DNA of 64,000 bases from Chloropicon primus (taxonomy: Eukaryota). Below, piece after piece: positions 11,588 through 17,801 of this stretch. The DNA is taken from assembly GCA_023205875.1 (NCBI GenBank), contig CP060756.1:806001-870000 (forward strand), read 5' to 3'. Position 1 is the first letter of the stretch. Each line of letters opens with the position of its first letter. The notes beneath the pieces are model-generated. The model ran no database searches. It saw only the letters and a program-made list of their open reading frames with translations, and was not told the DNA's origin. The position numbers were made by a program, and so were the translations under genes.

Positions 11588-13022
11588 ATGGCGCCCTCGG
11601 CCTCGGCCTCGGCTTGTTTGGGGGATGACTTGGAGGGGCAGGCGGAGGAGAAGCTCCTTCTGAGCGACGGAGGGAGCGAGCGGTCTTCAGATGGGGAGAC
11701 TACTTCTTCGTCGAGTTCCTGCTTTTCCTGCTTCGGAGGTCTGGGGGGGGAGGGGGAAAGGGCCAAGCTGAAGCGAAAGCTTCTCCTGGCAATCGTCTTG
11801 ACGTTTACGTTCATGATCGTAGAGCTGGTGGGGGGCTGGTTGTGCAACTCTCTGGCCATCATGACAGACGCTGCCCATATGCTCTCGTAAGTGGAGTCGA
11901 CGGTTTCGCTTTCTCGGGCCCACCTGTGCGGATGGGATGACTGGCTGACACCTCTTTCTCTCTCTTCGTCTCGACTGGTGTGCTTCAGGGACTCGACCTC
12001 TTTCTTCATCTCGTTCATGGCCGTCATGATTGCGAGCAAAAAGCCAACGAGGAAGTACACGTTCGGCTTCCAGCGCGTTGAAATCTTGGGCGCTCTGCTG
12101 TCGGTGATCATCATCTGGCTCCTAACGTTTTACCTGGTGGTGGAAGCCATCGGTAGAACGCGAGGCATTCTCTACGGGAACGAGACGGATCAAGTCGATG
12201 GCAAGACTATGGTGAGTCCCACGCACACTTCCCTTCCGCATCAGCAATTCTGACAGCCTCCCTCTCCCTTTGTAGACCATCATAGCGTGCATCGCCCTCG
12301 TGGTGAATTCTGCGCTTTTGCTCGTTCTCGGCCATGATCACGGTCACGGGCATGGGCACTGTCACGGTCACGGTCACGGTCATGGGCATGGGCATGGGCA
12401 CGACAACGGGCACGATCACGACCACGGGCACGATCACGACCACGGGCACGACCACGACCACGGGCACGATCACGACCACGGGCACGACCACAACCACGGG
12501 CACGACCACGACCACGGGCACGATCACGACCACGGGCATGGGGAAAACCTGAACCTGAGAGCTGCATACATTCATGCTTTGGGGGATTTGATCCAGTCTT
12601 TGGGGGTTTGCATTGCAGGGGTTGTTATCTGGATAAAGCCGAGCTGGCAGCTCGCGGATCCGCTTTGCACCTTCACCTTCTCGATCATGGTGCTCTACAC
12701 GACAATTCAGATACTGAGTCAAACGCTGGAGGTTCTGCTGGAGACTGTTCCGCCGAACGTGGACATCGTGAAGTTGAAGGGGGACATCGAGAGTCTCCCT
12801 CACGTTCGCGAGTGCCACGATCTTCACGTCTGGTCCCTGACGACGGGAACGGTGGTCTGCACAGCCCACATCGTTGTTGATGTGGAGACCATCTACGAGG
12901 CGAGCGAGATTCTGCACCAAGCAAAGGAGGTCTGCAAGAGGGAGAACGTAAGCCACGTCACGCTCCAATCGGAGGCCTACGGTAAAGCCTGCCCAACACA
13001 CCGTTGTTGGGACCAAAGCTAG
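11588..13022 (+). CDS. Cation diffusion facilitator, Zn transporter (MTP1/ZnT2-like); introns 11887-11988 and 12212-12275
   Basis: SLAIMTDAAHMLS/D, YTFGFQRVEILGA, His-rich loop, NLRAAYIHALGD, ADPLCT, HDLHVWSLT, HVTLQ; splice sites keep the frame. Confidence 0.93.
12333..12540 (+). repeat. His-rich coding repeat, (HG)n then (HGHDHD)n 18-bp units
   Basis: Units like CACGGGCACGA(C/T)CACGAC repeated about 7 times in the transporter loop. Confidence 0.9.
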
Positions 13023-13078: not shown

Positions 13079-13669
13079 TTACACAGGTTTTTGAGTCTCT
13101 TTGGCCTTTTCCTCCTCCAGATACTCGTCCACCCCAAGCATCTTGTGTATCTGCGCCTCCTGGGACTGGATGGCCTTGAGGAACTCGCTATATTGTATTT
13201 TGCCATCCGAGTCCACGTCAAAGTGTTTCAGAAAAGTCGCAACTTCTTGCTCGGTGAGCGGGTCCCCCAGTTCCGACATGGCAGCCATAAACTCGTCGGT
13301 CGTGATGCAACCGCTGCTATCCTTGTCAAAGTACTCGAAGGCCAGGCGGATCATGGTCTCCTCGTGCTTCTTCTCCGTGAGAAACCGCGCCCACAGGTGC
13401 GAGATCTCGCCAAAGGTCAGGTGCTTCTCGAGGGGAAGCATCATCCCCCTGTAGATGCTCCTTATCTTCGTTGGCATCGGGTTCAGACCTATCGTCTGCA
13501 GAATGGTCACGACGTCGTCGAAGTCATAATGCCCGTCCTCCACCTTGTACCCCAAACTCGTGATCGCTCTCGCAAGCATTTTGAGCTCCACCCTCCCAAG
13601 GCCACTGGTCTCGGCATAGTACGTCACATTCTTTATGGCAGACACCCGGTGGTGGAACAGAAAATTCAT
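13079..13669 (-). CDS. Calmodulin-like EF-hand protein
   Basis: Two canonical C-lobe EF-hands (DKDSSGCITTDE, DVDSDGKIQYSE); N-lobe degenerate. Confidence 0.85.
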   Translation of the reverse strand: MNFLFHHRVSAIKNVTYYAETSGLGRVELKMLARAITSLGYKVEDGHYDFDDVVTILQTIGLNPMPTKIRSIYRGMMLPLEKHLTFGEISHLWARFLTEKKHEETMIRLAFEYFDKDSSGCITTDEFMAAMSELGDPLTEQEVATFLKHFDVDSDGKIQYSEFLKAIQSQEAQIHKMLGVDEYLEEEKAKETQKPV

Positions 13670-13954
13670 GGTGGCGGACTCCTACCTCGCCTGGGACCAG
13701 CCGCAACGCCAAAGATGCTCCACTACTCCCCGCACCAACACACACACAAGTCTTGGCAACAACAAACTCGGTTCTCCGCGTCCTCGCGTTACGTTGTCCA
13801 ACCCAAACCTACTGAACTTTCCTCTACCCTCTCTACCCTCGCAATCCACCTTCGCATCCACCTCCTCTCTCCTTGAGCACCGTACCGTCCCAGTCCTCTT
13901 CCAACACAACCGCAACGAAGGGGACCACCGACAATGGAATAGACCCAAGCCTCA

Positions 13955-14001
13955 AGCAAAGCAAAGCAAGGCAAAGCAAAGCAAGGCAAAGCAAGGCAAG
14001 C
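13955..14001 (+). repeat. Pentanucleotide microsatellite (AAAGC/AAGGC)n
   Basis: About 9 units read directly. Confidence 0.8.
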
Positions 14002-14282: not shown

Positions 14283-15041
14283 ATGAGGATGAGGATGAGG
14301 ATGATGGCGAGGGGGAACGCATGCTCAGGGAATCCGGGGGGGACTGCGTCGTGCGATCGACGGTGGTTGGGGGGAGGGGGTCTTACAGCGGGGATCGTGT
14401 CGCCTCGGGGGCTGCGGCAGCGTCGGGACCCCCGTTCGGGCTGCAGACCGGAAGGCAGGGAGCCGGAGCCGGAGCCAGAAGCGGCCTCGACCGAGGCGGG
14501 AGGTTCCCCACTGGGGAGCTTGCTGCCCTCGCAGGCGCAGATCAGCGAAGGCTTCGAGAAGGTCGGGTTCGTGGGTGGCCAGGGCACTCGGGTCAAGTGG
14601 GGCGTGCTCCGGGAGAAGATCCCGGAGGGCGAGGCCCTGCCGAACCCAGAGGACCGGGAGAAGAGGAGGAGGGAGGCGGCCGAGAATCTTGTCAACATAG
14701 ATCAGGAGGAGAGGAGCCGGAGGCTGCTCGCCGGAAGCCTTGGAATGGTCGTCACCACGGCCCTGGCCTTCCTCTGCACCGGCCAGCCCTTCCTGGTCCG
14801 TTACCTTGGAGTTGGCGTCCCCCTCGGTCTGTCGCTTGGATTCCTCGTGAGCGGTCAGCAGGGCCTGTGAAACATAGGTCAAGCCGGCCTCTGGGATGTG
14901 GACGGCACAGGCATGCAGAAGATAGAGGACGAGGCGATATCGGAGCAGATCCTTTCCAAGGTGAACACCATGAACGGCAGGATGTTCCTCATCACGACAG
15001 CGCTTTCGATCGCCTACTCCGCTTTCCCCTTTCAGAACTAG
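14283..15041 (+). CDS. Membrane selenoprotein candidate (UGA-Sec at 14868-14870, ~252 aa), possibly algal MSP family
   Basis: The ORF continues in frame past TGA as GQQGL-U-NIGQAGLWDVDGTG...MFLITTALSIAYSAFPFQN to TAG at 15039-15041; three hydrophobic helices; SECIS-like hairpin 35 nt downstream. Confidence 0.85.
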
Positions 15042-15062
15042 GGAGAGAGAGCCGCTCTGCGG

Positions 15063-15138
15063 GACGCGCGTTAGCAATGATGCTGGGTGCGTAAAGTCAC
15101 GGACAGCACCCAGCGGAATAAACAGTCGTGAAGACGTC
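15063..15138 (+). promoter_or_regulatory. SECIS element (type II-like)
   Basis: ATGA core 15077-15080; perfect 9-bp stem GCTGGGTGC (15082-15090) with GCACCCAGC (15106-15114); AAA at 15093-15095; GTC/GAC mini-stem; GA at 15116-15117. Confidence 0.88.
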
Positions 15139-15461: not shown

Positions 15462-17801
15462 ATGGAGGGCAACGGGTACTGCACTTGGAATCCTACCGCC
15501 GACAAGGCGACGGAGGAGAAGCTGGTGGTGAACAACACGCTCATTCGCTCGGGTCACGTTCCCTTCGCGCCCAAGGAGGGGAACAAGGTGAAGTGGTACA
15601 CATGCGGCCCTACTGTGTATGATGTGGCGCACATGGGTCACGCGAGGGCGTATCTGACCTTCGACATCCTCCGACGCATCCTGGAAGACTATTTCAACTA
15701 CGACGTGGTGTACCAGATGAACATAACGGACATAGACGACAAGATTATCGTTAGGGCAAGGAGGACGGAGCTCCTGAGGAAGTTCAGGGAGAAGGCGGTG
15801 TCGTCCGTGATATCGACGACGGACGTCGGGCAGCGAGTGCTGGACGCGGCCGAGAAGACGAAGGAGAGGGAGGAGGGCAAGCTCGAGGCGCTCAAGGCGG
15901 AGCTTGCCAAGGCCGTCGAAGTCTCGAAGAGCTCGAAAGAGAGCGCGATTCTCGACACCCAGGTGAAGGAGCAGGAGCTGAAGGTGTCCCAGGCCCAGGA
16001 GGCGCTTCGCAATGCCCAGACCGCTGTGGCGGAGCTGAACAAGTCCCCAAAGTCCGGGGACCTGCTGGAGGCGGTCCTGGAGGCGGCCAAGGATTCTCTC
16101 GCCGAGTCTCTCGACGCCGAGGAGGGCCACACCATGGGCGGCTCCAAGGACGAGGACCACAAAATCTTCAGGGAGCATGCCACCAAGTTCGAGGCCCTCT
16201 TCCACGAGGACATGACGAACTTGGGCGTCAGACCTCCCACGATTTTGACCAGGGTGAGCGAGTACGTTCCTGAGGTCGTGGCTTACATTGAGGGGATAGT
16301 GAAGAAGGGCTTTGCGTACGAGAGCAACGGCAGCGTCTACTTCGATACCTACGCGTTCATCCTGGCGGGCAACCAGTACAGGAAGCTCGAGCCGATGCCG
16401 CAGGTCCAGTGGGAGAGCATCAAGGCCGGGAAGGGGGCCTTGGAGGGCGAGGTGTCCGAGAAGAAGTCTCCCATGGACTTTGCGCTGTGGAAGAAGTCAA
16501 AGGCGGGAGAGCCGGCGTGGGAGTCCTCTTGGGGGCTCGGAAGGCCGGGGTGGCACATAGAGTGCTCGGCAATGGCGGGGGATGTGCTGGGAGACAACCT
16601 GGACATCCACGCGGGCGGGGAGGACCTCTGCTTTCCCCACCACGACAACGAGCTTGCCCAGTCCGAGGCCTACTGCGGCTGCAAGCAGTGGGTGAACTAC
16701 TTTTTCCACGCCGGGCACCTTCACATCAGGGGACTGAAGATGAGCAAGAGTCTTAAGAACTTCGTGACGATCCGACAGGCGCTCGAGGCGCACACTGCGA
16801 ACCAGATCCGCTTGCTGTTCCTCATGCAGAATTGGGACAAACCGATGCTGTACTCGGATCAGATGGTGGATGACGCGAAATCGAAGGAGGCCATGCTGAG
16901 GAACTTCTTTGGGGCAGTCAAGGGCCTGCTGAGGGAGACGCCACCGACGAAGTATGCCGCAGTCCCCCAGAACTGGCTCGAAGAGGAGTTCAGCCTGAAC
17001 GAGGAGCTCAACAAATGCAAGGCAGCGGTGCACTCGAGCTTGTGCAACAACTTTGACACCCCAAGCGCCATGGAAGCGATTTTCGCCCTTGTCTCGAGCA
17101 CAAACAAGTACATCAACCAGCCCGACAAGAAGGGCTTCCGTGTCATGCTCCTGAAGAGCATTGCCCTCTACATCACGAGAATTCTTCAGGTGTTTGGGCT
17201 GCTGGTGGACAGCGACAGCATAGGTTTCGGAGGAGGCGGAGGCGGCCAGGAGGACGCCGTTGAGAAGTACCTGGACGCTTTCGTTCACTTTAGGGATCAG
17301 ATCAGGTCGCTTGCCCGGGACAAGGGCATCAAGGACTTGCTGGAGCTCTGCGACAGCGTGAGAGACGACGTGTTCACGGAGCTCGGCGTCAGGGTCGAGG
17401 ACAGCACTCGCGAGGGCCAAGGGTCCCTTTGGAAGCTCGACGACCCGGCTGTCTTGAAGAAGGAGATCGAGGAAAAGAAGGCCAAGCAGAGGGAGATGGC
17501 CGAGAAGAAGAGGAAGAACAAGCTCCAGAAGTTCCAGAAGGAGCTCGCGAAGTGGGAAGGCATCGCCGCTGTCGCCCCAGAGAAGCTTTTCCTCGCGGAC
17601 GAGAAGTACTCCAAGTTCGACGACGGCGGACTTCCCGTGGCTCTCGCCAACGGGGATCCTCTGTCCAAGAAGCAGACCAAGAACTGCGTTAAGGAGATGG
17701 ACAAGCACAGGGCCAACTACCAGCAGCTACAGGACAAGCCGGGCGGGGCGGAGGCGTACTTGGACCAGCTCAGGAGAGACATCGAGGGCTTGCAGATATA
17801 A
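15462..17801 (+). CDS. CARS: Cytosolic cysteinyl-tRNA synthetase
   Basis: WYTCGPTVYDVAHMGH, NITDIDDKII, DFALWK, GRPGWHIECSAM, FPHHDNE, KMSKS. Confidence 0.97.
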   Translation: MEGNGYCTWNPTADKATEEKLVVNNTLIRSGHVPFAPKEGNKVKWYTCGPTVYDVAHMGHARAYLTFDILRRILEDYFNYDVVYQMNITDIDDKIIVRARRTELLRKFREKAVSSVISTTDVGQRVLDAAEKTKEREEGKLEALKAELAKAVEVSKSSKESAILDTQVKEQELKVSQAQEALRNAQTAVAELNKSPKSGDLLEAVLEAAKDSLAESLDAEEGHTMGGSKDEDHKIFREHATKFEALFHEDMTNLGVRPPTILTRVSEYVPEVVAYIEGIVKKGFAYESNGSVYFDTYAFILAGNQYRKLEPMPQVQWESIKAGKGALEGEVSEKKSPMDFALWKKSKAGEPAWESSWGLGRPGWHIECSAMAGDVLGDNLDIHAGGEDLCFPHHDNELAQSEAYCGCKQWVNYFFHAGHLHIRGLKMSKSLKNFVTIRQALEAHTANQIRLLFLMQNWDKPMLYSDQMVDDAKSKEAMLRNFFGAVKGLLRETPPTKYAAVPQNWLEEEFSLNEELNKCKAAVHSSLCNNFDTPSAMEAIFALVSSTNKYINQPDKKGFRVMLLKSIALYITRILQVFGLLVDSDSIGFGGGGGGQEDAVEKYLDAFVHFRDQIRSLARDKGIKDLLELCDSVRDDVFTELGVRVEDSTREGQGSLWKLDDPAVLKKEIEEKKAKQREMAEKKRKNKLQKFQKELAKWEGIAAVAPEKLFLADEKYSKFDDGGLPVALANGDPLSKKQTKNCVKEMDKHRANYQQLQDKPGGAEAYLDQLRRDIEGLQI

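What the first reader, a model, noticed from the sequence alone, without database searches (positions are those of the whole stretch)
14283..15138. Hidden membrane selenoprotein: in-frame UGA plus SECIS element
Seen: the ORF track stops at TGA 14868-14870, but the frame stays open and protein-like for 56 more codons (NIGQAGLWDVDGTGMQKIEDE..., with a third hydrophobic helix) to TAG 15041. A hairpin with eukaryotic SECIS hallmarks follows 35 nt later: AUGA core, perfect 9-bp stem, AAA 12 nt after the core, apical mini-stem, and GA on the 3' side. Established: green algae encode selenoproteins, including a poorly characterised membrane selenoprotein (MSP), and gene callers truncate them. Inference: Sec sits just after the second TM helix with no CxxU motif, and the Arg/Ser/Gly-rich N-terminus may target the protein to an organelle, so it could be an organellar membrane redox protein. 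Whether it is MSP or a new family cannot be decided here.
Basis: partly seen in the sequence, partly recalled or inferred. Interest (0 to 1): 0.88.

Follow-up and report, generated by a model that had tools for sequence, protein, structure and literature searches.

The report
Algal membrane selenoprotein with bacterial counterparts
This green-alga gene carries an in-frame UGA and a selenocysteine-insertion hairpin that the public gene model hides; it belongs to an uncharacterised algal selenoprotein family listed in 2007, likely works as a redox protein in the chloroplast membrane, and has bacterial relatives that likely also use selenocysteine but are missing from the current catalogue.

Summary
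The window is Chloropicon primus. The NCBI model (HOP50_03g24010) drops 37 codons around the TGA, but contigs from five runs, two shown to be spliced RNA, keep it. TGA sits at the same codon in 5 of 5 related loci. Of 155 homologues, 99 end exactly there and 32 have Cys. The 20 codons after the TGA are 16-20/20 identical to relatives. The SECIS is the only strict-pattern hit in the window. The protein is not MSP: it is the orthologue of Ostreococcus 'hypothetical protein 3' (Lobanov 2007), so the family is known but uncharacterised. New here: (1) a confident three-helix membrane model with no solved match; (2) plastid-type targeting leaders across the family; (3) prokaryotic homologues, usually with a second Cys, including 11 Chloroflexota genes with TGA at the same site. 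All 11 genomes have SelA and a downstream hairpin, against SelA in 5 of 35 other carriers. I found no matching entry in a 2026 catalogue of 119 prokaryotic families or in NCBIfam 20.0. Most likely function (inferred): a single-selenol redox catalyst at the stromal membrane surface.

The parts
14283..15041 (+). Coding sequence, 252 aa read through the TGA (start could be this ATG or one of the next in-frame ATGs; NCBI uses 14289)
14283..14423 (+). Arg-rich, acid-poor N-terminal leader (about aa 1-47), predicted plastid transit peptide
   Evidence: sequence; family-wide leader counts; no targeting predictor run
14577..14702 (+). Soluble beta-hairpin and helix ending in the conserved NI(D)xxExxRR motif (aa 99-140)
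14703..14774 (+). Predicted TM helix 1 (aa 141-164)
14790..14861 (+). Predicted TM helix 2 (aa 170-193)
14868..14870 (+). In-frame TGA, predicted Sec196 (GLUNI)
14871..14912 (+). Highly conserved post-Sec segment (NIxQxxxWDVDGxG)
14976..15032 (+). Predicted TM helix 3 (about aa 232-250), encoded after the TGA
15068..15129 (+). Eukaryotic SECIS element, type II-like, AUGA core at 15077
14800..14910 (+). 111-nt GT..AG stretch whose removal reproduces the NCBI protein; most likely a false intron called to avoid the TGA
   Evidence: retained in transcript contigs

Best explanation
This Chloropicon primus gene has a conserved in-frame UGA and a 3' SECIS and is the orthologue of Ostreococcus 'hypothetical protein 3'; it is predicted to make a three-helix membrane selenoprotein that is likely imported into the chloroplast and likely acts as a one-selenol redox catalyst at the membrane surface. 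Shown: the TGA is kept in transcripts and conserved in relatives, it alternates with Cys, and the sequence after it is under purifying selection. Predicted: three TM helices, with Sec at the end of helix 2 followed by a short helix and hairpin. Inferred: the leader is a transit peptide; by the positive-inside rule Sec faces the stroma. There it would reduce or exchange with a substrate at the lipid interface (lipid hydroperoxide, quinone or protein disulfide) and be recycled by an outside thiol such as glutathione or thioredoxin. Prokaryotic homologues nearly all carry a second Cys just before helix 1, which would serve as the resolving residue. The algal forms have lost it, a pattern known from Sec forms of GPx and MsrA (recalled).
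For: TGA at the same codon in 5 of 5 metagenome loci, 4 independent. Among 155 homologues: 99 end exactly at the site, 32 Cys, 10 Trp, 1 Ser, 4 gap, 9 not covering it. In the one cluster checked, Trp forms and truncated forms are the same gene, so Trp is a gene-caller reading of TGA. The 20 codons after the TGA are 19, 19, 16 and 20 of 20 identical in L001, L003, L004 and L005; L005 has 12 third-position and 0 first- or second-position changes. Contigs from 5 runs bridge the TGA with no joint across it; X2 and X4 splice two GT..AG introns in a nearby gene, so they are RNA. P0133 matches the published O. lucimarinus hypothetical protein 3 up to its U (3 differences in 150 aa by eye) and aligns to ours at 38%, E 7e-8. 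AlphaFold pLDDT 96.9. Of 97 homologues with a long leader: 28 are transit-peptide-like, 23 have a signal plus [AGS]F, 20 have a signal without F, 26 are other. Second Cys before NI: 34 of 35 prokaryotic Cys forms and 10 of 11 TGA forms, versus 0 of 97 truncated algal-type proteins. The target C/U is the only invariant Cys of the prokaryotic alignment and is in register with U196 (HHalign 99.0%, E 2.5e-18).
Against: No enzyme activity, substrate or location has been measured. There is no solved relative and no conserved gene neighbourhood in 12 bacterial loci. The distance between the two Cys could not be measured, because only secondary structure was returned. The leader counts use crude rules with no control set, and green-algal plastid and mitochondrial leaders were not told apart. 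No listed contig covers the SECIS, so its presence in the mRNA is not shown. The SECIS is below Rfam's gathering score. The strict pattern found no SECIS in the 4 related loci with 3' sequence; a looser one found it in L002 and L003, and L001 and L005 (the latter lacking AA) were judged by eye. C. primus Sec machinery was not checked because no genome was held.
Confidence: 0.55

Rival explanations
1. It is a selenoprotein as above, but the Sec/Cys serves as a sulfur or selenium carrier or gate at the membrane (persulfide-type), in the manner of the YgaP transmembrane domain of an E. coli sulfurtransferase.
For: Same layout as the YgaP TM domain: N-x-R motif, two TM helices, Cys at the end of helix 2 (YgaP TMH2 L142-G160 with C159; PMC4730233 passages). 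Weak Pfam PF11127 hits: E 0.021 and 0.085. A PF11127 genome search picked up one family member at 22.2 bits, below the 25.3 cut-off. One bacterial copy lies next to a true YgaP-like gene.
Against: All hits are below the cut-off. HHalign against true YgaP-like sequences gives only 0.4-9.9% probability. No rhodanese fusion or neighbour was seen in 12 loci. There is a third helix and a WDVDG segment that YgaP lacks.
Confidence: 0.2
2. It is a selenoprotein whose Sec/Cys (with the second Cys in prokaryotes) binds or senses a soft metal such as Cu, Zn or Hg at the membrane rather than cycling redox.
For: Two conserved Cys on the same predicted membrane face in prokaryotes. A CopC gene lies beside the gene in L046, with a similar-looking neighbour in L006 (not scanned). 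A putative mercuric transport selenoprotein exists in bacteria (PMC13188914 Table 1).
Against: No MerT, YeeE or other transporter Pfam hit. Algal forms keep only one thiol or selenol. CopC was found beside 1 of 12 scanned loci.
Confidence: 0.15
3. The TGA is a real stop or lies in an intron, as in the NCBI model, so no Sec is inserted.
For: The NCBI protein lacks the 37 residues, and a GT..AG 111-nt stretch reproduces it. The SECIS is below the gathering score.
Against: The skipped stretch holds TM helix 2 and the most conserved motif of the family. Transcript contigs retain it. Codons after the TGA are under purifying selection.
Confidence: 0.02
4. It is the algal membrane selenoprotein MSP.
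For: It is an algal, hydrophobic selenoprotein.
Against: MSP has two Sec and a G-x-U-C-W-P motif (supplement passages). Ours has one Sec in GLUNI and matches the separately listed hypothetical protein 3.
Confidence: 0.01

Closest known systems
Ostreococcus 'hypothetical protein 3' selenoprotein (Lobanov et al. 2007, PMC2375036; probably the 'Hypo' family of Jiang et al. 2020, PMC7539508, an inference because their supplement could not be read)
   Same: Same motifs in the same order (NID..EERxRR, two TM helices, GLUNI, WDV(D/E)GxG, third helix), one Sec, similar length after the Sec.
   Different: Nothing of substance. The C. primus gene has a longer leader, and close relatives carry an N-terminal SnoaL-like domain. 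The passages I read give no structure, location or prokaryotic homologue.
MSP (membrane selenoprotein of Dictyostelium, Chlamydomonas, Volvox, Ostreococcus)
   Same: Algal, hydrophobic, Sec-containing, function unknown.
   Different: Two Sec and a UCW motif; listed as a separate family in the same paper.
YgaP-like transmembrane domain (Pfam PF11127, formerly DUF2892, name recalled)
   Same: N..R motif, helical hairpin and a Cys at the end of helix 2; weak sub-threshold HMM hits.
   Different: Below the cut-off; profile comparison not significant; extra third helix; no rhodanese partner seen.
SELENOK / SELENOS type membrane selenoproteins (recalled)
   Same: A single Sec without a thioredoxin fold, anchored in a membrane, which works like the mechanism proposed here.
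   Different: They are single-pass ER proteins with a C-terminal Sec (recalled); no sequence similarity was detected (no Pfam hit).

Membership tests
Eukaryotic selenoprotein gene | In-frame TGA conserved in relatives or aligned with Cys | tested here: met
Eukaryotic selenoprotein gene | Coding conservation continues past the TGA | tested here: met
Eukaryotic selenoprotein gene | SECIS element downstream of the ORF | tested here: met
   (full-length match, below gathering score)
Eukaryotic selenoprotein gene | TGA retained in mature RNA | tested here: met
Eukaryotic selenoprotein gene | SECIS lies within the transcript | tested here: inconclusive
   longest listed contig ends at 15027
Eukaryotic selenoprotein gene | Selenium incorporated in the protein | not testable with these tools
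   needs 75Se labelling or MS
Ostreococcus hypothetical protein 3 | Sequence homology with Sec at the same motif (GLUNI) | tested here: met
MSP | Two Sec residues | tested here: not met
   one TGA in the frame versus two in MSP
MSP | UCW motif | tested here: not met
MSP | Score against an MSP profile | not testable with these tools
   no MSP profile on hand
YgaP-like TM domain (PF11127) | HMM score over the curated cut-off | tested here: not met
   best 22.2 bits against 25.3
YgaP-like TM domain (PF11127) | Same fold | tested here: inconclusive
   not listed among fold matches
Bacterial selenoprotein (the TGA homologues) | TGA aligned with Cys and frame open beyond it | tested here: met
   11 loci
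Bacterial selenoprotein (the TGA homologues) | Sec machinery in the same genome | tested here: met
   SelA over cut-off in 11 of 11; tRNA-Sec in 5 of the 5 tested; SelB and SelD not tested
Bacterial selenoprotein (the TGA homologues) | Hairpin with G in the apical loop just downstream of UGA | tested here: met
   11 of 11 versus 6 of 34 Cys loci, rule set after seeing TGA loci; no Rfam bacterial SECIS hit in 8 loci

The most novel reading that the evidence does not exclude
This is one branch of an unrecognised cross-domain family of small three-helix thiol/selenol membrane proteins of no solved fold. It uses selenocysteine both in algal plastids and in Chloroflexota bacteria, the latter an uncatalogued bacterial selenoprotein family, with Sec probably gained separately in the two lineages and reverted to Cys in bacteria that lack SelA.
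Probability: 0.65. Interest if true: 0.68.

Novelty: new member of a known kind. Interest (0 to 1): 0.52.

Why it matters
The gene corrects a public model and shows how often this family is lost to gene callers (99 of 155 homologues truncated at the TGA). It gives a 2007 orphan selenoprotein a predicted fold, a likely plastid location and prokaryotic relatives. The two-Cys bacterial and archaeal forms can be expressed without Sec machinery, which makes the function directly testable. The 11 bacterial TGA genes would add a family to the short list of selenoproteins shared by bacteria and eukaryotes.

Tried and rejected
Pfam and NCBIfam give no hit for the window protein or significant hits for the prokaryotic forms. 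PDB sequence search: best E 0.12. Foldseek against PDB: no match at E<=0.001 for either model. The wide VIA search gave a best Z of 6.1 (Mrp subunit G, rmsd 5.0, 95 aligned), within the range of generic helical bundles. ESM Atlas with the natural Cys homologue P0039: top scores 0.83-0.84, unnamed prokaryotic clusters, leads only. A pattern scan of genome contigs with the algal alignment found no relative. Neighbourhoods of 12 bacterial loci (101 ORFs scanned) show no conserved partner; scattered redox genes (DsbA, DoxX, F420 quinone reductase, ferritin-like, glyoxalase) have no control and are not counted as evidence. YgaP homology was not established. No SnoaL domain upstream in the window (tblastn). 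No earlier scan findings. No whole genome was held, so C. primus Sec machinery is unchecked; PMC7678280 had no 'Chloropicon' passage in its main text. Lack of contig cover over the SECIS is not taken as evidence. The GC3 value for CysRS was read out of frame and is discarded. The tree is the quick version only; P0018, P0039 and all truncated proteins are not in it, and no clade test was run. Literature searches. The supplement of PMC7539508 could not be read and may already hold the algal distribution of this family.

Full report
Observation. The reading frame, the TGA at 14868-14870, the 56 further codons and the hairpin are as described. Rfam SECIS_1 aligns over its whole length at 15068-15129 (25.7 bits, E 0.062, gathering score 35). 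Folding energy alone is a weak signal (z -1.94). A strict pattern written after seeing this element finds one site in the 64 kb window on both strands, this one, against 0.55 per shuffled window (40 shuffles).

Origin and public model. The best protein hit is Chloropicon primus HOP50_03g24010, identical except that it lacks 37 residues around the TGA. Removing the GT..AG stretch 14800-14910 gives that product. Transcript contigs argue against such an intron. X1 (14716-14933), X2 (14740-15027) and X4 (14789-14969) run through it without differences or joints. X5 and X6, RNA on record, give 14822-14978 and 14802-14954 with no differences. X2 and X4 splice two GT..AG introns in a nearby gene, so they are RNA. 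These five runs come from four studies. None of the listed contigs reaches the SECIS.

The TGA is a coding position. Five of five metagenome loci (L002 and L003 are near-copies) have TGA at the same codon. Over the next 20 codons they are 16-20 of 20 identical in protein, with changes almost only at third positions. The 50%-cluster library holds 204 relatives at E<=0.001. Of the 155 homologues in hand, 99 end exactly one residue before the site, 32 have Cys, 10 Trp, 1 Ser, 4 a gap, and 9 do not cover it. The stop codon itself was seen only in the five loci. In the one cluster checked, Trp forms and truncated forms are the same gene. SECIS-like hairpins follow the stop in L002/L003 (loose pattern) and by eye in L001 and L005, the latter without AA; the strict pattern missed all four.

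Family. Supplementary file 2 of Lobanov et al. 2007 (PMC2375036; I read main-text passages, search hits and part 8 of file 2, and file 4) lists O. tauri and O. lucimarinus 'hypothetical protein 3' with the same motifs and U in GLUNI. Library protein P0133 equals the O. lucimarinus sequence up to the U but for three residues (by eye) and aligns with ours at 38%, E 7e-8. MSP is a different family with two Sec and a UCW motif. Jiang et al. 2020 (PMC7539508; abstract, sections 5, 11, 22 and passages; supplement unreadable) list a 'Hypo' family that is about 80% Sec-containing; that it is this family is my inference. A search for the family name found only the 2007 paper. The one named Cys homologue is from Monoraphidium neglectum. 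Most hits have no taxonomy, so calling them eukaryotic is an inference.

Anatomy. AlphaFold2 on 65 sequences gives pLDDT 96.9: a hairpin and helix, two long helices (141-164, 170-193), Sec196, a short helix and hairpin, then a long helix (217-247). No solved relative was found by sequence or fold. Arg clusters before helices 1 and 3 suggest that the N-terminus and the Sec lie on the same, inner side (inference). Of 155 proteins examined for leaders, 28 were excluded and 30 were short. Of the 97 with long leaders, 28 look like transit peptides, 23 like signal peptides followed by [AGS]F (the bipartite plastid signal of secondary-plastid algae, recalled), 20 like signal peptides without F, and 26 other (crude rules, no control). 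Close relatives fuse a SnoaL-like domain in front; C. primus does not at this locus.

Prokaryotic relatives. The algal profile reached P0160 (E 1.5e-6). From it came a Chloroflexia MAG locus and a haloarchaeal plasmid gene. The profile matched 32 of 301 genomes of that phylum. HHalign of the two alignments gives 99.0%, E 2.5e-18, with U196 in register with the invariant prokaryotic Cys. Five of the 30 loci returned have TGA at that codon with the frame open 53-56 codons further. A search of 201 genomes of one order found 19 carriers, 10 with TGA, 6 of them new. SelA passes its cut-off in 11 of 11 TGA genomes, against 5 of 26 other carriers from the phylum search (25 with Cys seen, G011 not inspected, G218 left out) and 0 of 9 Cys carriers of the order. 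Fisher p is 3e-7 overall and 2e-4 within the order, without correction for kinship or incompleteness. tRNA-Sec was found in the 5 genomes tested. A hairpin with a G-containing loop about 17-19 nt after the codon occurs in 11 of 11 TGA loci and 6 of 34 Cys loci, three of those six in the TGA clade (rule set after seeing the TGA loci). Rfam reported no SECIS in 8 of these loci. I read the whole Table 1 of a 2026 review listing 119 prokaryotic selenoprotein families (PMC13188914) and recognised none as this family. NCBIfam 20.0 and Pfam give no significant hit for six prokaryotic members, and the motifs NISP and NIGP are absent from the four deep-Sep supplements (PMC12013277; exact text search only). 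Entries defined by CDD or PANTHER ids could not be tested.

Tree. A quick tree (83 rows, 123 columns) separates the presumed eukaryotic from the prokaryotic rows (SH-aLRT 97) and groups the 11 TGA genes with 4 Cys genes (85). Two of those Cys genes are in genomes where SelA was not found, which suggests reversion. A second Cys just before the NI motif is present in 44 of 46 prokaryotic rows, 5 of 27 full-length Cys 'eukaryotic' rows, 0 of 9 Trp rows and 0 of 97 truncated ones.

Mechanism. One invariant residue alternating between Cys and Sec in two domains of life marks a reactive site (established selenoprotein logic). A second Cys in prokaryotes, lost in the algal forms, fits a resolving residue. 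I therefore favour a membrane-surface redox catalyst in the plastid recycled by outside thiols (0.55). The rivals are a YgaP-like sulfur or selenium carrier (0.2; weak sub-threshold hits, not upheld by profile comparison) and a metal-binding role (0.15). Gene neighbourhoods do not decide.

Verdict. Real, and a new member of a known but uncharacterised family. The added value lies in the predicted fold and location, the tractable Cys homologues, and the apparently uncatalogued bacterial Sec form.

Noticed in passing
L009, L022, L024, L031, L033, L086, L089, L090, L095, L096, L097 (G068, G150, G259, G020, G044, G344, G328, G338, G448, G430, G314): Bacterial homologues with TGA at the conserved Cys, SelA in each genome and a downstream hairpin: a likely uncatalogued bacterial selenoprotein family.
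   Followed up: yes
L084 (G462), L093 (G307): Cys genes nested in the TGA clade in genomes where SelA was not found; L084 keeps the hairpin. Possible Sec-to-Cys reversions.
   Followed up: partly
L001:179-955, L002:1048-1683, L004:1000-1827; P0003, P0004, P0014: Relatives fuse a SnoaL-like (PF12680) domain to the N-terminus; C. primus lacks it at this locus. Not mentioned in the fusion section of PMC7539508.
   Followed up: partly
L002 about 1087: A stop within the SnoaL domain where the near-identical P0007 has Trp; sequencing error or allele.
   Followed up: no
L001:1052-1183: An in-frame 44-codon insertion after the TGA, probably an intron; the terminal stop of L001 is also TGA.
   Followed up: no
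L005:1087-1146: SECIS-like hairpin with AUGA/GA core and a 9-bp stem but no apical AA; possibly a non-canonical SECIS.
   Followed up: partly
window 15462-17801 (+): Cysteinyl-tRNA synthetase gene. The likely start is ATG 15462, not 15141 as listed by the ORF tool; a transcript contig begins at 15411.
   Followed up: partly
window 13079-13669 (-): EF-hand protein gene, divergent from the selenoprotein gene, with a CAAAG-type repeat at about 13954-13999 in between.
   Followed up: no
window 11613-12446: A spliced transcript with two GT..AG introns (joints 11886/11989 and 12210/12275), not obvious from the ORF list.
   Followed up: no
L048:8458-8730; L046:6979-7641: A true YgaP-like TM gene beside one bacterial copy and a CopC gene beside another.
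   Followed up: partly
P0068, P0069, P0079, P0104, P0110, P0127, P0135: A divergent set of unknown origin, mostly without a clear targeting leader, four of them with the prokaryote-like second Cys, branching between the algal and prokaryotic forms.
   Followed up: partly
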